From Candidatus Heimdallarchaeota archaeon (lineage in GTDB: Archaea; Asgardarchaeota; Heimdallarchaeia; Hodarchaeales; Hodarchaeaceae), in contig RDOB01000006.1 of assembly GCA_011364965.1 (NCBI GenBank), forward strand, positions 1-64,000: DNA of 64,000 nt. The letters are read 5' to 3'. The position numbers and the translations under genes are program-made. Positions 12,526 to 21,559 of the stretch are shown here, piece after piece. Numbering within the stretch: position 1 is the stretch's first letter; each line of letters begins with the position of its first letter. The notes under the pieces were generated by a model, which did no database searches, was not told the DNA's origin, and worked only from the letters and a program-made list of their open reading frames with translations.

Positions 12526-12924
12526 ATGATAAATTGGAAAAGAACTTTGCGGAAGAATATTGACCTCTTTGGTCGTGTTCGGCAATTTTTTTTACGTGGC
12601 CATAGTAATTGGTTTGCACTCGCCTTTTCTATGTTGAATTTTACGTTAATTTTCTATAATTTGCTTTTTAAAGAATTATACTTTATTCCTGACGCTTTGA
12701 AGCACTATAGCATATTTTTCATTATATTTGGTGTGTTTTATTTTCCTTCAGCCACCATATTAGGGTACTTAGATTTTAAGAAGGGTACATATAAAGCTGA
12801 ACAAGAAATTACCTTGAAGTATTCTCCTCTATGGCAGCAGCTGTTTTCAAAACTAGAAAAGCTTGAACAAGAGAATATGAAGTTATTACAAGAGGTTCAA
12901 CGACTGCAAAAAAATAATGATTAA
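12526..12924 (+). CDS. Two-TM membrane protein with C-terminal coiled coil
   Basis: Two hydrophobic segments, heptad tail LEKLEQENMKLLQEVQRL, GGTGA SD. Confidence 0.7.
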   Translation: MINWKRTLRKNIDLFGRVRQFFLRGHSNWFALAFSMLNFTLIFYNLLFKELYFIPDALKHYSIFFIIFGVFYFPSATILGYLDFKKGTYKAEQEITLKYSPLWQQLFSKLEKLEQENMKLLQEVQRLQKNND

Positions 12925-15930: not shown

Positions 15931-16575
15931 ATGGCTACAATTCTAATGACCCTAGCTGAAAAGAAAGCTCCTTCTAGATATGATTTAGTAATAGATCTTC
16001 TAACCCTTGGTAAACGCAGAAAAATTTTCCAGTTCATTGAAAAATATATAAAAGAAGATTTTCTCGTACTTGATGCAGGTACAGGATCTGGAAAAGTTTT
16101 GGATCATATTGCACATGCATGGGGAACTCCAATTGGCGTGGATATAAACCCTGAGATGTTAAAAAATACTAAAATCCGATTGAAGACCGAAAGAAAGCAT
16201 TATGAACTCTTAATGTCTAGTATTCTTGAATTACCTTTTAAAAATGAAGCTTTTAATATGATTGTTTGTAATTTTGTCCTTTCTGAATTAACTGTCATGC
16301 AGGTAGCTAATGTACTTACTGAATTTCTAAGATGCCTTCGTAAAACTGGCGTACTTCTTTTAACCGTGGAAAATAAACCAAAAAATAAAATTAGCGGGTT
16401 TATAAATAAATTAATTAGAGCTCCTTCATATATAGTGGCTAGAATATCAACAGGTATATCCAGACATCCAATACACGATATAGAAAACTGTTACCATGAC
16501 TTGAAGGTTCAATTGATTGAAAAAAAGGAATATCTCCTTGGATCTCTAGCAGTTCTGGTCTATGAAAAGAAATAG
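15931..16575 (+). CDS. Class I SAM-dependent methyltransferase, corrinoid protein-associated (CpaM-like)
   Basis: VLDAGTGSG motif I, GVDINPEML, LPF..E.F; N-terminal APSRYD...LLTLG and FVLSEL as recalled for CpaM; adjacent to a corrinoid protein gene. Confidence 0.75.
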   Translation: MATILMTLAEKKAPSRYDLVIDLLTLGKRRKIFQFIEKYIKEDFLVLDAGTGSGKVLDHIAHAWGTPIGVDINPEMLKNTKIRLKTERKHYELLMSSILELPFKNEAFNMIVCNFVLSELTVMQVANVLTEFLRCLRKTGVLLLTVENKPKNKISGFINKLIRAPSYIVARISTGISRHPIHDIENCYHDLKVQLIEKKEYLLGSLAVLVYEKK

Positions 16576-16670
16576 GAATTATATTATATTTTTTAGATAA
16601 AATTGAAAAGCAAAAACAAGTCTACTTACCTACAATCGTAAATTGATATATTTTACCCCCAATAACGGAA

Positions 16671-17642
16671 ATGATACGAAAAATGTCAGTAAATTCTTTT
16701 TTAAAAGAATTAATCTCTGTATTCATCACTGGAATTGCATTTCCAGGTTTTAATTTTCAACAGAAACCCGGATTATATCCAATTGGTGCTCCATCTGAAA
16801 AATCCCCAATCCTTATCACATCAAACTATTTTATAACTGTAAAACGCGTAATATCCTCTCTTAAAAATCAAAAAATTGATTCATGGTTACTTGTCGTAGA
16901 TACTGCTGGAGTGAACGTTTGGTGTTCTGCTGCGGGGGGTAATTTCACAGCAGAGAGAATTTTACAGCAGATCGAAAAAGTGAAACTAAGGGAAAAGCTT
17001 AGTCATAAAAACCTAATATTACCTCAGCTTTCCGCAGCAGGAGTTAATCATATTATTCTAAAGGAAGCTGGTTGGAACGCAAGGTTCGGCCCTGTTGAAA
17101 TCAGAGACCTTGGTGCTTACCTGAAGAATAATTTGGAAAAGTCAAATAAAGCAAAAACAAAAAGCTTCCCTTTTAAGGAGCGGCTTGAACTTAGTATTGG
17201 TCACAATTTCTTTATTTCCCTCATTCTTCTTCCTTTCGTTTTATTAGTGGAGTTATTAAGGAATCCTCTTCCGTTTCTCTCTCCTTGGGCTCAATGGCTT
17301 GTTGCAAATATATTATTCTTACTTTTCTACATTTGGATGTTTGGTTTTCTAGTAGCAATTCTGTATCCGTTTATTCCATTCAAATCTGGATTTCTTAAGG
17401 GATTGATATTGTCGATAGCAATTATTCCCATTGCTGGTTTTTTGTTATTCAGTTCATCATCTCTTGAATTCATACTAGCATTCGGTTCTCTCATTATCTA
17501 TGGTACTGCAATAAGTACTGACTTTGATGGATTCACACCATTGCATGGAATGGATTTTTTTGAGAAGGATTTAATTCTGTTTGCAGGAGTTGCATTGTTA
17601 GTAGTAGTAGGTTTAATTATTTTTCCAGTCGTTCTGACTTAA
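16671..17642 (+). CDS. HgcA-like membrane-anchored corrinoid protein (CdhD/AcsC-type cobalamin domain plus TM domain)
   Basis: PGLYPIG.P...SPILITSNY, LLVVDTAGVNVWCSAAGG (cap-helix Cys), LILPQLSAAGV, FGPV; about 5-6 C-terminal TM helices; DFDGFTP resembles the HgcA NFTG.T motif. Confidence 0.85.
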   Translation: MIRKMSVNSFLKELISVFITGIAFPGFNFQQKPGLYPIGAPSEKSPILITSNYFITVKRVISSLKNQKIDSWLLVVDTAGVNVWCSAAGGNFTAERILQQIEKVKLREKLSHKNLILPQLSAAGVNHIILKEAGWNARFGPVEIRDLGAYLKNNLEKSNKAKTKSFPFKERLELSIGHNFFISLILLPFVLLVELLRNPLPFLSPWAQWLVANILFLLFYIWMFGFLVAILYPFIPFKSGFLKGLILSIAIIPIAGFLLFSSSSLEFILAFGSLIIYGTAISTDFDGFTPLHGMDFFEKDLILFAGVALLVVVGLIIFPVVLT

Positions 17643-17654
17643 GAGGTTTTAATT

Positions 17655-17873
17655 TTGACAATATTATTTAATGAGAAACGATGTGTAGGATGTAAATACT
17701 GTGTTCAAGTGTGTCCAAGGAATTGCTTTGGTTTCAACGATTCAAAACACAAAGCAGAAATAATTCTCCCGTTGAATTGCTTGAACTGCCGAGCTTGTGA
17801 AATTAACTGTGAGGGAGACGCAATAAGAATTGAAAAGCAAATTTTGAAGAATTTTCTATCACAACTTATTTAG
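17655..17873 (+). CDS. 2x[4Fe-4S] ferredoxin in the HgcB position
   Basis: CVGCKYCVQVCP and CLNCRACEINC; GAGG SD with TTG start 12 bp after the corrinoid gene. Confidence 0.9.
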   Translation: MTILFNEKRCVGCKYCVQVCPRNCFGFNDSKHKAEIILPLNCLNCRACEINCEGDAIRIEKQILKNFLSQLI

Positions 17874-17900
17874 TTTTCAAGTTCCCAATGGTGTGAGTGA

Positions 17901-18839
17901 TTGATTGGTGAAATAATTTCAATTATCGCGATCTTTACTTTTGTTTCGTCCAATACAATGTTTAGAAAAATCGAAACAGAAGTTTCACCAATTTTGATTA
18001 ATGCTTTTCGTACTTCTATTGGCGCTATAACCTTTATTTTATTTGGATTAATTTTAAACCTTTGTAATGTGATATCACAGTTTACAAATGAATTGACTTT
18101 ACTACTCATTATAAGTATTGTCTTCGGACAAGTAGTTGGAGACACTGCTTATTTTATTACTCAGATGAGACTTGGAACTACAATCTCCTTGGCAATTTCG
18201 ATGACTTTTCCTTTTTTCACATTTTTTATTAGTATTTTAATATTAAAAAACCCTGTTCCTGTTCGATTTCTAATTTCTTCGATGTTGATCGCTTTAGGGA
18301 TACTAATAATGCATAATTATAAAATTTCTATTGATACAGATTCAAAAAAAACATCTGTTGTGCTTTTGGGTGATTTGAGAGAAAAAACGTTTGCTATTAT
18401 TATGGGAATAATTGCTGCATTTTCATGGGCTTTAGGAATTGTATTTACTGAAATTAGTGTAAATGAAATCTCCTACATTATTGGTTCTGATACTAATAGC
18501 TCTCTTGTAGCGAATGCTTTTCGGTTCCCATTTGCGTCTCTTTGTTTAATATTGTTATCCTACAATGAGGATAGGTCTTTTTTTAGAAAAATACAGGAGT
18601 GGAATAGGGTTATTATAGCATGGTTGTTCTTTGCTTCTATATTAGGAACATCAATTGGGGCATTACTCTATGTGGAAGCAATTCGTATTGCAGGAGCGGC
18701 TTTTGTCTCTATTTTATGGACAGCAAGCCCTTTATTTGCATTACCGATTACATGGTGGCTAAATGCTGAGCAGATCGGTCGAAAAGGGTTCCTAGGTGTT
18801 ATAATAACAATCATTGGAGCGATTCTGAGTATTCAATAG
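17901..18839 (+). CDS. DMT/EamA family transporter
   Basis: Ten TM; GQVVGDTAYF; SPLFALP....LNAEQI. Confidence 0.85.
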   Translation: MIGEIISIIAIFTFVSSNTMFRKIETEVSPILINAFRTSIGAITFILFGLILNLCNVISQFTNELTLLLIISIVFGQVVGDTAYFITQMRLGTTISLAISMTFPFFTFFISILILKNPVPVRFLISSMLIALGILIMHNYKISIDTDSKKTSVVLLGDLREKTFAIIMGIIAAFSWALGIVFTEISVNEISYIIGSDTNSSLVANAFRFPFASLCLILLSYNEDRSFFRKIQEWNRVIIAWLFFASILGTSIGALLYVEAIRIAGAAFVSILWTASPLFALPITWWLNAEQIGRKGFLGVIITIIGAILSIQ

Positions 18840-18873: not shown

Positions 18874-19422
18874 TTAAATAATTCCTTGTTTGGAAAGAAT
18901 TTCTCGGGTGAGATCAGTGAAAACTTCACGTACGTTTTTATCAAGGTATGCAGATGTTTCAATATATTTTAGTGGCTTAAATTCTTGGATAACATGATCT
19001 TCAAGTGTTTCGTAATCTATCTGAATTTCCTCTTCCAAATCACATTTATTGCCAACTAGAATTTTTGGTAGATCTTCACCTAATCGTGAATCTATTTGTT
19101 CTTTCCAAGTATACAACTCATCTAGAGTATCGCTTCTAGTTAAATCAAAAACCAATAAAGCTCCATGGGCTTTCCTAAAAAATACTTCCCTTAGAGTTTG
19201 AAACCTTTCTTGTCCAGCCACATCAAAAATTATAAGGTTAACTAGAAGACCATTAATCTCTATCAATCTATTAGTAGGATCCATTCCCACTGTAAGTAAA
19301 TAATTAAAATCAAATTTATCATCAACGTATCTTCGAACGAGAGAGGTTTTTCCAACCGCGCCACCTCCAGTAACGATGAGCTTTAGATGATACTTAGGTT
19401 TTCGATCAGAATCGTATGCCAT
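18874..19422 (-). CDS. Rab-like small GTPase
   Basis: GGGAVGKT, LTVGMD, FDVAGQERF, NKCD, ETSA. Probable start MAYDSD at 19422 behind AGGTGTG; the ORF track starts at 19455. Confidence 0.93.
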   Translation of the reverse strand: MAYDSDRKPKYHLKLIVTGGGAVGKTSLVRRYVDDKFDFNYLLTVGMDPTNRLIEINGLLVNLIIFDVAGQERFQTLREVFFRKAHGALLVFDLTRSDTLDELYTWKEQIDSRLGEDLPKILVGNKCDLEEEIQIDYETLEDHVIQEFKPLKYIETSAYLDKNVREVFTDLTREILSKQGII

Positions 19423-19684
19423 TGTATTCACACCTTTGAGTTGTAAGATAAACATGTCTTATGTTAGTTTTAAATTATACTAAATAGAGAATTCCACAAT
19501 CTTAATTTGTCCTATTAAAGATCAATGTTTGTTACATTGCTTTTATCAGAAAAGAAACATTTAAGATAAAACATAATCATTTCAATCTAAGTTTATTGAT
19601 TTCAACTCTTAAAAGACGAATAAATCAATTATAAAGATTAATCATCTCAGTTTCGACTCTAATGAATTTAAGTTGTGAAACATT

Positions 19685-21559
19685 ATGAGTACAGTAATTT
19701 CTTCTGTTAAAGTAAAAATCAAACGCATACCATGGGGTGTATACCTTAAAAAACAGCTTTACAAACTCCTAGGGTTTCTCGGATTAGGAATATTAATAAT
19801 TGGCATAATGGTGGTAAGCTCAGAAATAAACCTAGAGACAGCTACCAGCGCTGATCTTCTTTACCTTATTGCTGTTGCTTTATCAAGTATTTGTTTCATA
19901 CTCGTATTAATCGGATTTTCAAAGATTATATTATTTGATATGGGAAATGAATTTGGTTTACGAAACGACGAAAATAATACCGTTTATAACGCAAGATTCT
20001 TCTTATTTGCCGCTTTAGCTCTATCATTCTGTTCTGCAATCTACTTACTGTTAGATGTCTTTCTTCAAGCAACATATCTCGAGTTATTACCAGTCTTAAT
20101 GATGGAATGGGTACTCATTGCTTTCGATATTCAAATTGCGGGTTTAACAGATATTGGAAGTGGGAGGGAGTTTTATCAGACTGCAAGAAATATTTATTTT
20201 GCTTTTTTCTTTTTGATAATTATTGGCTTTTCAGTCTTAGTTTTTCTGTCTATATTAACAACTTTAGGCCGTAAACGGGTTGTTTCCCGTTATAAGAAGG
20301 ATGAAACCGAACAAACACAAGAAGAAGAAAATAAACGTTTTTACAAAATTTTTGCTTGGCTCGCAATACCTCTTATTGAAATCTTTCTAGGAAGTTTATT
20401 TTCATCCGAGATTGGATTCATAATTTCAGTTATTTTTCTCATTTTACTGATTTGGTGGGTCTATCAGTTATTTAAAATAATAATACTTGTTGTATGGAGA
20501 GGATTTAAGATTACAGCCTTCATAACAAGTGTGAATGCGTTATTGTTAATCCCACTGATTCTTGTATTGTATGGAGCTCCTGTAATAGCGTGGATGGGTT
20601 GGGATGTAATTCAATTACTCCAACAAGGAGCTATAGACCTGACACTTCCAAATCTAATAACAGCTGGCTTTGAAAGTCTTTCTTATCGTTATCAAGATAT
20701 TCTTAGTATTATACAGCTTGATTTCATTTTTATTACTCTAGTAGCAACTTGTATCGTAGGTTTTGCAGAAGGATTTGCTATTGTAGCTATTTTTACCGCT
20801 ATTTTCAAGGGGGTAGAAGTGGCACGAACAGGTCAGATTATCACTCATTCTCCTCCTAAGATCGCAGTGATTTCAAAATATCTAATCATGCTTGTAGCGT
20901 GGCTAGGATTATCTTGGAATAGCTTTTTGGAGATCTGGAATCTGTTAATAGAAAAGTTTAATTTTCACCTTCCTCCAATTGTGATTCCTTCATTTTTCTA
21001 CCTGATTTATAACTCGTTAATATTGCCCCTGTCGACATGGTTCGAGCAAATTATTCCGATATTAAAATTTGTACCATTCCTCCTCCTTCCTCTCTATTTC
21101 ATACTTTCTGGGGCGTTCAAATTCCTAAGTGTAACAATAATCACTCCTAGAGTTAAGAATCGGCTCTCAATCTTCTTCTTATTAGTATCTACATCATTCG
21201 TTCTTATTATAACTAATATTTTAGGAGACATTTATGAGCTTGGCGCTTCTGTAATTCCTGATGCTCCTCTTATATCCGTTTTTGAGTTGTCCTATATTCT
21301 TACTGAAGCAGTGTTCGCTTTTGAATATTTTGAAGCAATAACGTTCTATACAGGATTTCTTTTTGGCCTTGCGTGGGTAATCCGAAGAGGAATTCAAGCA
21401 ATTCAAATGAGATCTCGTCCACCAGTAATCCCATTTGATGGCCATTTAACCGAATCTGATCTTCAATTGTCTTCTGGGCCTTCTAAAGAAACAAATAAAG
21501 TTCAAACCGAATCTAATAAGAGTGAAATCTCACATGAATCTAGTACTGAAGAAGAATAG
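19685..21559 (+). CDS. Polytopic membrane protein of unknown function
   Basis: 624 aa, more than 10 hydrophobic segments, acidic internal loop and Ser/Glu-rich tail. Confidence 0.75.
   Translation: MSTVISSVKVKIKRIPWGVYLKKQLYKLLGFLGLGILIIGIMVVSSEINLETATSADLLYLIAVALSSICFILVLIGFSKIILFDMGNEFGLRNDENNTVYNARFFLFAALALSFCSAIYLLLDVFLQATYLELLPVLMMEWVLIAFDIQIAGLTDIGSGREFYQTARNIYFAFFFLIIIGFSVLVFLSILTTLGRKRVVSRYKKDETEQTQEEENKRFYKIFAWLAIPLIEIFLGSLFSSEIGFIISVIFLILLIWWVYQLFKIIILVVWRGFKITAFITSVNALLLIPLILVLYGAPVIAWMGWDVIQLLQQGAIDLTLPNLITAGFESLSYRYQDILSIIQLDFIFITLVATCIVGFAEGFAIVAIFTAIFKGVEVARTGQIITHSPPKIAVISKYLIMLVAWLGLSWNSFLEIWNLLIEKFNFHLPPIVIPSFFYLIYNSLILPLSTWFEQIIPILKFVPFLLLPLYFILSGAFKFLSVTIITPRVKNRLSIFFLLVSTSFVLIITNILGDIYELGASVIPDAPLISVFELSYILTEAVFAFEYFEAITFYTGFLFGLAWVIRRGIQAIQMRSRPPVIPFDGHLTESDLQLSSGPSKETNKVQTESNKSEISHESSTEEE

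What the first reader, a model, noticed from the sequence alone, without database searches (positions are those of the whole stretch)
15931..18839. Non-canonical HgcAB-like corrinoid methylation module with its own SAM methyltransferase and exporter
Seen: co-oriented SAM methyltransferase, corrinoid protein with cap-helix NVWCSAAGG plus TM domain, dicluster ferredoxin (12-bp gap) and EamA transporter (27-bp gap), with GNAT, EamA and MFS genes upstream. Established: Hg-methylating HgcA has N(V/I)WCA(A/G)GK, and HgcB has C(M/I)ECGAC plus C-terminal cysteines. Here the Co-ligating Cys is kept, but the motif ends in GG as in fused HgcAB-like proteins. The ferredoxin reads CLNCRAC and has no Cys tail, yet the genes are split as in true hgcAB. 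Inference: an intermediate-architecture B12-dependent methyl-transfer system, probably acting on a substrate other than Hg (a metalloid, thiol or small molecule), with the product exported.
Basis: partly seen in the sequence, partly recalled or inferred. Interest (0 to 1): 0.8.

Follow-up and report, generated by a model that had tools for sequence, protein, structure and literature searches.

The report
Unfused CpaM–HgcA-like–ferredoxin methyl-transfer module
An Asgard archaeon carries, as three separate genes, a SAM methyltransferase, a membrane vitamin-B12 protein related to the mercury-methylating enzyme HgcA, and a small ferredoxin; this is an unfused, deep-branching form of an already catalogued but never characterised family whose target is probably not mercury.

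Summary

The module is a divergent, unfused member of NCBI's "CpaM + HgcAB-like" family. All three proteins score best against those models but below their cut-offs.

In the trees the corrinoid protein belongs to a tight Asgard clade. That clade lies outside canonical HgcA (100/100) and outside the crown clade holding every ferredoxin-fused form (99/94). It keeps the fifth, C-terminal TM helix that fused forms lack, so the split is genuine. The in-frame TAA is coincidence.

The link to the methyltransferase is strong:
- it is adjacent in 29 of 30 Asgard fused loci;
- it is present at all 13 split loci;
- natural CpaM–HgcA and CpaM–HgcA–ferredoxin single-chain fusions exist.

The exporter link is weak. 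The downstream EamA is present only in the window's nearest relatives (3 of 13 loci).

Most likely mechanism, inferred: SAM → Co(I) → CH3-Co(III) → an unknown acceptor, with the ferredoxin reducing the cobalt.

This scan has already reported the family, including a split Thor-archaeon form, on other DNA. I class it as a new variant of a known kind, of moderate interest.

The parts
15931..16575 (+). Class I SAM-dependent methyltransferase, a divergent CpaM-family member (214 aa, P0001)
   Evidence: NCBIfam NF043040 CpaM is the best hit: 124.4 bits, E 4e-36, full length 3-215 of 216, but below the 180-bit cut-off. It keeps all nine invariant columns of a 27-sequence CpaM alignment, including the GxGxG SAM motif and D71. 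The AF2 model has pLDDT 88 and a Rossmann MT fold. Orthologues lie upstream of the corrinoid gene at all 13 loci of the clade.
16671..17642 (+). HgcA-like corrinoid-binding membrane protein (323 aa, P0002): N-terminal cobamide domain with a Cys-bearing cap helix, followed by five TM helices
   Evidence: HgcAB_like 218.6 bits (cut-off 285), HgcA 169.9 bits (cut-off 275), CdhE 100 bits. Sequence match to the CFeSP large-subunit B12 domain, E 5.6e-14. AF2 pLDDT 92; top Foldseek hits are the HgcA model 9a0b_A and CFeSP chains. Five hydrophobic segments, including a C-terminal one at residues 302-320.
16914..16940 (+). Cap-helix motif NVWCSAAGG (residues 82-90), with the putative Co-ligating Cys85
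   Evidence: G80, N82, V83, W84 and C85 are invariant across 38 canonical and non-canonical HgcA relatives. Canonical proteins read NVWC(A/S)AGKGTF. Fused and CpaM-linked ones read NVWCxAxGGxF.
17640..17657 (+). Junction: TAA stop of the corrinoid gene, GAGGT Shine-Dalgarno-like motif (17643-17647) and TTG start of the ferredoxin, all in one frame
   Evidence: Every relative has a stop here, sometimes two. The two ORFs are in the same frame at 7 of 13 loci and in different frames at 6. GGAGG-type motifs precede the ferredoxin start.
17655..17873 (+). 72-aa 2x[4Fe-4S] ferredoxin, HgcB-like but without the HgcB-specific cysteines
   Evidence: Best hits are the HgcAB_like C-terminal part (53.6 bits) and HgcB (52.2 bits, cut-off 99). 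It has eight Cys in two CxxCxxCxxxC motifs and no others. It aligns with the ferredoxin tails of fused proteins. Canonical HgcB controls carry CMECGAC, an extra GVGC Cys and a C-terminal CC.
17901..18839 (+). EamA/DMT-family transporter (312 aa); a lineage-restricted neighbour, not a conserved part of the module
   Evidence: Pfam EamA, E 2.6e-26. An orthologue follows the ferredoxin only in L068 (63% identity) and G211/L061. It is absent downstream in L009-L011, L056-L060, L062 and L063.

Best explanation
The three genes encode a membrane-bound, cobamide-dependent methyl relay. It is an unfused, deep-branching version of the uncharacterised CpaM / HgcAB-like family, the sister group of the mercury methylase HgcAB.

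Proposed cycle (inferred):
1. The 2x[4Fe-4S] ferredoxin reduces the cobamide held by the HgcA-like protein to Co(I).
2. The CpaM-like enzyme binds SAM and delivers its methyl group to Co(I), giving CH3-Co(III) with Cys85 as lower axial ligand.
3. The methyl group passes, as a carbanion or radical equivalent, to an acceptor at the membrane face. The acceptor is unknown and is probably not Hg(II).

The downstream EamA transporter is a recent neighbour in this sub-lineage. At most it is an accessory.

Shown: family relationships, conserved residues, topology, gene linkage and natural fusions.
Inferred: cobamide binding, the direction of methyl flow, the role of each protein and the nature of the acceptor.
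For: (1) Homology. All three proteins hit the CpaM, HgcAB_like and HgcB models best. Read through the TAA, the A and B genes together score 282.7 bits against HgcAB_like, whose cut-off is 285.

(2) Catalytic residues are kept. The NVWC cap helix with Cys85, plus P118, A122, G140 and R171, is invariant across 38 relatives. The SAM motifs and all CpaM invariants are present. All 8 cluster cysteines are present.

(3) Linkage.
- CpaM lies immediately upstream on the same strand in 29 of 30 Asgard fused loci and in 3 of 3 other fused loci.
- MT, A and B are together at all 13 loci of the split clade.
- An independent lineage, P0126, has the same three-gene layout.

(4) Rosetta-stone fusions. CpaM-HgcA-like single chains exist (P0125, P0128, P0137, P0145, P0163, P0187, P0244), as do CpaM-HgcA-ferredoxin single chains (P0136, P0182, P0255, P0257).

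(5) Control. Three canonical hgcA loci have no co-oriented CpaM.

(6) Precedent. Purified canonical HgcAB takes its methyl from SAM via CH3-Co(III) with Cys-thiolate ligation, and HgcB acts as reductant (Zheng et al. 2024, PMC11588087).

(7) Genome context. The genome has no CdhE/ACS, so a Wood-Ljungdahl methyl source is unavailable. It encodes four other B12-domain proteins, so it does use cobamides.

(8) Against Hg as the target. The HgcB Cys73-equivalent and the C-terminal CC are absent, and the cap helix lacks GK. Both cultured organisms with fused forms failed to make methylmercury (PMC4646819, PMC5893877).
Against: - No biochemistry exists for any member of the CpaM/HgcAB-like family.
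- Canonical HgcAB uses SAM without a separate methyltransferase. CpaM might therefore act on the final substrate or on something else, rather than load the cobalt.
- All three proteins fall below the curated NCBIfam cut-offs.
- CobS and CobD were not found in this 87%-complete genome, so the cofactor would have to be salvaged.
- The negative Hg assays were done on whole cells of organisms with fused forms. The authors themselves say these do not exclude Hg methylation by the protein.
Confidence: 0.6

Rival explanations
1. It is a functional mercury methylase: an HgcAB equivalent that simply has divergent motifs, with CpaM as a helper.
For: It has the same domain architecture as HgcA: a corrinoid domain with NVWC Cys plus 5 TM helices. 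It has a separate dicluster ferredoxin. Canonical HgcAB also uses SAM (PMC11588087). Podar et al. caution that negative whole-cell assays do not prove the fused protein cannot methylate Hg.
Against: It lies outside the canonical clade (100/100*). It scores 169.9 bits against the HgcA cut-off of 275 and 52.2 bits against the HgcB cut-off of 99. The cap helix is not one of the six motifs of verified methylators (PMC10087281). The ferredoxin lacks the three cysteines shown by mutagenesis to matter in HgcB. Two cultured carriers of the sister family do not methylate Hg.
Confidence: 0.1
2. The acceptor is an organic molecule, such as a membrane lipid, a quinone or a peptide/natural product, rather than a metal or metalloid. 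In this reading the module is a B12-dependent C-methylase with CpaM as SAM loader.
For: After the CpaM model itself, CpaM's nearest characterised relatives are UbiE/MenG quinone C-methyltransferases. The corrinoid protein is an integral membrane protein. Earlier notes of this scan (e1-2515890, e1-3861353; unverified here) place fused HgcAB-like genes inside biosynthetic clusters in bacteria.
Against: Apart from MT, A and B, no biosynthetic or lipid gene is conserved next to the module in the Asgard loci. Arsenite methyltransferase models also appear among CpaM's weaker hits. A Cys-on cobamide is so far known only from metal methylation.
Confidence: 0.2
3. The split is an artefact or a decay product: a fused HgcAB-like gene interrupted by a nonsense mutation or read through at the in-frame TAA.
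For: The two ORFs are in the same frame, separated by one TAA. Reading through gives 282.7 bits against the fusion model.
Against: All 13 loci of the clade have a stop here. Six are out of frame and one has two stops, and all have an SD-like motif and a start codon of their own. The corrinoid protein ends in a fifth TM helix that fused forms lack, so read-through would put the ferredoxin on the wrong side of the membrane. The clade lies outside the fused crown clade (99/94*).
Confidence: 0.02
4. EamA is the dedicated exporter of the methylated product, making this a four-gene functional unit.
For: It is co-oriented with a 27-bp gap. The same order MT-A-B-EamA occurs in the closest relative, L068, at 63% identity, and A-B-EamA occurs in G211.
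Against: EamA is absent downstream of the ferredoxin in 10 of 13 loci of the same clade, and from the 1.5-kb flanks of 30 Asgard fused loci and from 3 other fused loci. P0004 orthologues were found in only 5 of 21 same-genus genomes. In four of those the orthologue lies on a different contig from the module; the fifth is G211, already counted above.
Confidence: 0.1

Closest known systems
CpaM + HgcAB-like fusion protein (NCBIfam NF043040 / NF043039; the 'fused HgcAB' of Podar 2015, Gilmour 2018, Lin 2023; e.g. Pyrococcus furiosus, Methanococcoides methylutens)
   Same: These are the best-scoring models for all three proteins. It shares the fused-type cap helix (…WCxAxGG.F), a ferredoxin without a Cys tail, and a SAM methyltransferase immediately upstream. 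The function of the family is unknown.
   Different: The ferredoxin is a separate gene. The corrinoid protein keeps a fifth C-terminal TM helix. All scores are below the curated cut-offs (124 vs 180; 219 vs 285). In the tree it lies outside the crown clade that holds all ferredoxin-fused forms (99/94*).
HgcA/HgcB mercury methylation complex (NF040863 / NF040864; Pseudodesulfovibrio mercurii ND132)
   Same: It has a two-gene corrinoid-membrane protein plus dicluster ferredoxin layout, 5 TM helices and an invariant NVWC with the Co-ligating Cys. Canonical HgcAB also uses SAM as methyl donor (PMC11588087).
   Different: The cap helix reads AAGG, not AGKG. The ferredoxin has CLNCRAC rather than CMECGAC and lacks the Cys73-equivalent and the C-terminal CC. 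It has a dedicated CpaM partner that was absent from the canonical loci checked. It is excluded from the canonical clade (100/100*).
Corrinoid iron-sulfur protein large subunit (CdhE/AcsC; PDB 4DJD, 2H9A, 2YCL)
   Same: It has a homologous C-terminal cobamide-binding Rossmann domain (E 5.6e-14; rmsd 1.4-2.2 Å over about 125 residues). The archaeal CdhE cap region also ends in …AGG….
   Different: It has no N-terminal [4Fe-4S]/TIM-barrel part and has a TM domain instead. Cys replaces the Thr/Ser of the CFeSP cap helix. This genome has no CODH/ACS.
Single-chain CpaM-HgcA-like and CpaM-HgcA-like-ferredoxin proteins (e.g. P0125, P0136, P0182; also present as second paralogues in same-genus genomes, L064-L067)
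   Same: They contain the same three modules in the same order. The basal CpaM-HgcA fusions have equally divergent CpaM domains (119-134 bits) and a separate downstream ferredoxin.
   Different: In those proteins the modules are covalently joined. Here all three are separate polypeptides.

Membership tests
HgcA, mercury methylation corrinoid protein (NF040863) | Score at or above the curated equivalog cut-off (275 bits) | tested here: not met
   169.9 bits. Canonical controls P0050 and P0068 score 417 and 360 bits.
HgcA, mercury methylation corrinoid protein (NF040863) | Cap helix N(V/I)WC(A/S)(A/G/S)GK, as in verified methylators (PMC10087281) | tested here: not met
   The window reads NVWCSAAGG. 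All 146 canonical-type relatives read …GK/…GE at that position.
HgcA, mercury methylation corrinoid protein (NF040863) | Conserved Co-ligating Cys and a five-helix TM domain | tested here: met
   C85 is invariant. There are five hydrophobic segments, and AF2 models the region after residue 168 as long helices.
HgcA, mercury methylation corrinoid protein (NF040863) | Falls inside the canonical HgcA clade | tested here: not met
   The canonical clade is supported 100* in the 130-row tree and 100/100* in the 55-row tree, and it excludes the window protein.
HgcB, mercury methylation ferredoxin (NF040864) | Score at or above 99 bits; C(M/I)ECGAC motif; extra Cys after the second cluster; C-terminal Cys pair | tested here: not met
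   52.2 bits. The motif is CLNCRAC, and there is no Cys beyond the eight cluster ligands. Controls P0274 and P0275 have all these features and score 123 and 114 bits.
HgcB, mercury methylation ferredoxin (NF040864) | Two CxxCxxCxxxC [4Fe-4S] motifs, encoded directly downstream of the corrinoid gene | tested here: met
HgcAB-like fusion protein (NF043039) | Score at or above 285 bits | tested here: not met
   218.6 bits for the corrinoid protein alone. 282.7 bits when read through the TAA into the ferredoxin.
HgcAB-like fusion protein (NF043039) | Ferredoxin domain fused to the C-terminus of the corrinoid/TM protein | tested here: not met
   The genes are separate at all 13 loci of the clade. 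The protein ends in an extra TM helix that fused forms lack.
HgcAB-like fusion protein (NF043039) | Fused-type cap helix and a CpaM gene immediately upstream | tested here: met
HgcAB-like fusion protein (NF043039) | Falls inside the clade of fused proteins | tested here: not met
   All ferredoxin-fused rows fall in one clade (99/94*) that excludes the Asgard split clade. The 130-row quick tree gives the same picture, with SH-aLRT 89.
CpaM, corrinoid protein-associated methyltransferase (NF043040) | Score at or above 180 bits | tested here: not met
   124.4 bits. Orthologues in the clade score 114-125 bits, and CpaMs beside fused genes score 239-297 bits.
CpaM, corrinoid protein-associated methyltransferase (NF043040) | End-to-end match, family-invariant residues, and adjacency to an HgcA-like gene | tested here: met
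   The match covers profile positions 3-215 of 216. M6, E10, L47, G50, G52, D71, M76, S118 and E147 are all kept. The gene lies 95 bp upstream of the corrinoid gene.
Cobamide-dependent methyltransferase (functional class) | Binds a cobamide and cycles between Co(I) and CH3-Co(III) | not testable with these tools
   Only homology to the CFeSP B12 domain is available, plus the presence of other B12-domain proteins in the genome.

The most novel reading that the evidence does not exclude
A dedicated SAM methyltransferase (CpaM) was part of the ancestral HgcA system, and canonical mercury-methylating HgcAB is the derived lineage that lost it. In this reading the three-gene Asgard module preserves the ancestral, fully modular state. 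It would offer a tractable model for how SAM is presented to a Cys-ligated cobamide, a step that has no assigned binding site in canonical HgcAB. Support: every non-canonical lineage at the unresolved base of the tree is CpaM-linked, and a CpaM-HgcA fusion (P0187) is the weakly supported sister of the canonical clade (92/69).
Probability: 0.25. Interest if true: 0.65.

Novelty: new variant of a known kind. Interest (0 to 1): 0.42.

Why it matters
HgcAB makes methylmercury. Its evolutionary origin, its natural substrate and the way it binds SAM are all open questions.

The paralogous CpaM/HgcAB-like family is widespread. Here 144 of 301 sampled Asgard genomes have a relative. No member has been characterised.

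An unfused form with three small separate proteins is the easiest version to express and reconstitute. It could show whether a class I methyltransferase loads a Cys-on cobamide from SAM, and what the methyl acceptor is.

For environmental surveys there is a practical point. These Asgard genes should not be counted as mercury-methylation potential: they fail the motif, score and clade tests for HgcA.

Tried and rejected
- **Complex prediction.** I ran the CpaM-like protein with the corrinoid domain (residues 1-172). The result was no verdict (score 0.00). It counts neither for nor against binding.
- **AU test.** I tested whether the split clade can be forced together with all ferredoxin-fused rows on the 130-row set. 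It did not finish in three 300-s runs and I abandoned it. A 55-row careful tree replaced it.
- **Read-through, pseudogene or recoding at the in-frame TAA.** Rejected on three grounds: junction comparison across 13 loci, the SD motif and own start codon, and the extra C-terminal TM helix.
- **Literature.** Searches for 'CpaM', 'corrinoid protein-associated methyltransferase', 'HgcAB-like fusion' and the NCBIfam accessions found no paper in the held library. Haft & Gwadz 2023 (PMC9879109) could not be read.
- **Solved structures.** A profile search of the PDB with the CpaM alignment returned only generic class I methyltransferases. It gave no hint about the substrate.
- **Wood-Ljungdahl link.** No CdhE was found in this genome or in the 4 same-class genomes sampled.
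- **Upstream GNAT/EamA/MFS as part of the unit.** Rejected. In relatives these genes are separated from the module by opposite-strand genes (TrmO-like in L009, DUF362 in L011), and they are absent from fused loci elsewhere.
Full report
**1. What is there**

The ORF list and translations confirm four co-oriented genes:
- a 214-aa methyltransferase (15931-16575);
- a 323-aa protein with NVWCSAAGG at residues 82-90 and a hydrophobic C-terminal half (16671-17642);
- a 72-aa ferredoxin starting at TTG (17655-17873);
- a 312-aa EamA transporter (17901-18839).

The gaps are 95, 12 and 27 bp. GNAT, EamA and MFS genes lie upstream, and a Ras-family GTPase converges downstream.

The corrinoid and ferredoxin ORFs share a reading frame. 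They are separated by one TAA, followed by GAGGT and TTG.

**2. Family assignment**

Against NCBIfam:
- The methyltransferase matches CpaM (NF043040) end to end, at 124 bits against a cut-off of 180.
- The corrinoid protein matches HgcAB_like (NF043039) best, at 219 bits against 285. HgcA (NF040863) follows at 170 bits against 275, then CdhE at 100 bits.
- The ferredoxin matches the C-terminal part of HgcAB_like and HgcB, at about 52-54 bits against a cut-off of 99.

Read through the TAA, the pair scores 282.7 bits against the fusion model.

The N-terminal domain is homologous to the B12 domain of CFeSP large subunits (E 5.6e-14). An AF2 model (pLDDT 92) superposes on those domains at 1.4-2.2 Å rmsd, and over its full length on the deposited HgcA model 9a0b.

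**3. Host**

The genome is 2.97 Mb in 16 contigs and 87% complete. It belongs to an Asgard archaeon. Close homologues are labelled Hodarchaeales, Heimdallarchaeota or Promethearchaeota. The complete genome CP070695 is in the same GTDB genus.

**4. Motifs**

Relatives came from two database searches:
- 146 carry the canonical NVWC(A/S)AGKGTF cap helix.
- 120 carry the 'fused-type' NVWCxAxGGxF.
- The Asgard clade reads NVWCS(A/S)(A/V)G(G/R/K)(N/H)FT.

Archaeal CdhE reads …VESAVAGGQL at the same place. The …AGG… ending therefore looks like the older state.

The ferredoxin has exactly eight Cys and aligns with the ferredoxin tails of fused proteins. Two canonical HgcB controls taken from hgcA loci show CMECGAC, an extra GVGC cysteine and a C-terminal CC(C). 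All of these are missing here.

**5. Is the split real?**

Thirteen loci of the clade were compared: the window, L009-L011, L056-L063 and L068. A few may come from the same organism.
- All have a stop between the two genes.
- Seven are in frame and six are out of frame. One has TAA TGA.
- Each ferredoxin has an SD-like motif and its own start.

Alignment A2 and a hydropathy scan show a further difference. The split clade, canonical HgcA and the CpaM-HgcA fusions all have a fifth, C-terminal TM helix. Ferredoxin-fused proteins have four helices and then run into the ferredoxin. Read-through would therefore place the ferredoxin on the wrong side of the membrane.

The in-frame TAA is a coincidence. 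The split is genuine.

**6. Phylogeny**

I built two trees: a 130-row quick IQ-TREE (LG+C20) and a 55-row careful tree. Both were rooted on nine or five Asgard CdhE corrinoid domains. They agree on three points:
- Canonical HgcA is one clade (100/100*).
- All ferredoxin-fused proteins fall in one crown clade (99/94* in the careful tree).
- The Asgard split clade (94/99) lies outside both.

The base of the HgcA side is an unresolved set of lineages. All are CpaM-linked, and none has a fused ferredoxin:
- the CpaM-HgcA fusions P0125, P0128, P0137 and P0145;
- P0126, which itself sits in an MT / A / 77-aa ferredoxin three-gene operon;
- P0187, a CpaM-HgcA fusion that is a weak sister of the canonical clade (92/69).

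The module is thus neither canonical HgcAB nor a broken fused gene. It is a third, deep, modular lineage.

**7. The methyltransferase belongs to the system**

- CpaM lies directly upstream on the same strand in 29 of 30 Asgard fused loci and in 3 of 3 other fused loci, scoring 239-297 bits.
- It is present at all 13 split loci. At G211 it has been displaced 2.6 kb by an insertion.
- Natural single chains join CpaM to HgcA-like, and CpaM to HgcA-like plus ferredoxin.
- Several same-genus genomes carry such a fusion as a second paralogue.
- Three canonical hgcA loci lack a co-oriented CpaM.
- The window's MT keeps every invariant residue of a 27-member CpaM alignment.
- The divergent CpaM scores (114-134 bits) track the basal HgcA-like lineages, which suggests co-divergence.

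**8. The transporter does not belong to the system**

The downstream EamA is found after the ferredoxin only in the closest relative, L068 (63% identity), and in G211. In the other ten loci the ferredoxin is followed directly by the GTPase region.

No EamA flanks any of the 33 fused loci.

The upstream GNAT/EamA/MFS genes are part of genus-wide synteny that also includes the GTPase and a 620-aa unknown. In relatives they are separated from the module by opposite-strand genes.

**9. Mechanism**

Zheng et al. 2024 (PMC11588087) showed that purified canonical HgcAB takes its methyl group from SAM. The reaction goes through CH3-Co(III) with Cys-thiolate ligation, and HgcB serves as electron donor.

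By homology, the most economical reading here has three steps:
1. The ferredoxin reduces the cobalt.
2. CpaM supplies the SAM site and methylates Co(I).
3. The Cys-on CH3-cobamide passes the methyl group to an acceptor at the membrane.

This genome lacks CdhE/ACS, so no Wood-Ljungdahl methyl source is available. It has other B12-domain proteins but no detectable CobS or CobD, which suggests cobamide salvage.

Mercury is an unlikely acceptor. The ferredoxin lacks the Hg-relevant cysteines. The cap helix is not one seen in verified methylators (PMC10087281). The two cultured carriers of the fused family do not make methylmercury (PMC4646819, PMC5893877).

The true acceptor is unknown. It could be a metal(loid) or an organic molecule.

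**10. Novelty**

The CpaM/HgcAB-like pairing is catalogued in NCBIfam, but no paper in the held library describes it. Lin et al. 2023 noted Asgard sequences in the fused-HgcAB subtree.

This scan has reported the family at least 54 times. Those reports include a split three-gene form in a Thor archaeon and a single-chain form in another Asgard genome.

What this window adds:
- evidence that the split form is an old, 5-TM, unfused lineage outside the fused crown;
- the observation that every fusion permutation of the three modules exists.

I rate it a new variant of a known kind.

Noticed in passing
L045, L048, L051, L052 (Asgard CdhE loci); P0164: Several Asgard CdhE (ACS gamma) proteins are about 590-600 aa long. 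They carry two tandem copies of the C-terminal corrinoid-binding domain: blastp of the HgcA-like domain hits at about residues 350-470 and again at about 470-595.
   Followed up: no
L064-L067 (G181, G107, G119, G102; same genus as the window): Several same-genus genomes carry a second paralogue: a CpaM-HgcA-like single-chain protein (about 550 aa) followed by a separate ferredoxin. No such copy was found in the window's own 87%-complete genome.
   Followed up: partly
L070/L071 (JGI metagenome contigs, P0126): An independent unfused MT / HgcA-like / 77-aa ferredoxin operon. It is translationally coupled (0- and 1-nt gaps) and flanked by heterodisulfide-reductase-like genes: a CCG-domain HdrB-like gene and a 1152-aa HdrA/FlpD-like gene.
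   Followed up: no
window 18874-19455 (-): A Ras/Rab-like small GTPase (Pfam Ras, E 2e-45) converges on the module. It is syntenic in all relatives examined.
   Followed up: no
window 19685-21559 (+): A 624-aa ORF with no Pfam or NCBIfam hit. It is conserved in position and size (615-646 aa) in L009-L011.
   Followed up: no
L053, L054 (canonical hgcA loci from metagenomes): Canonical hgcA genes sit among arsenic-type genes: ArsP permease, an LMW phosphatase (ArsC-like), an ArsR-type HTH and an ArsG-like permease. This is in line with the proposed ArsR-like control of hgcAB (bioRxiv 10.1101/2022.10.17.512643, title only seen).
   Followed up: no
G000 whole genome: CobS and CobD/CbiB were not found, although at least four B12-binding-domain proteins are encoded. 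This suggests cobamide salvage. The genome is 87% complete.
   Followed up: partly
window 12526-12924 (+): A 132-aa ORF with no family hit, lying upstream of the GNAT gene.
   Followed up: no
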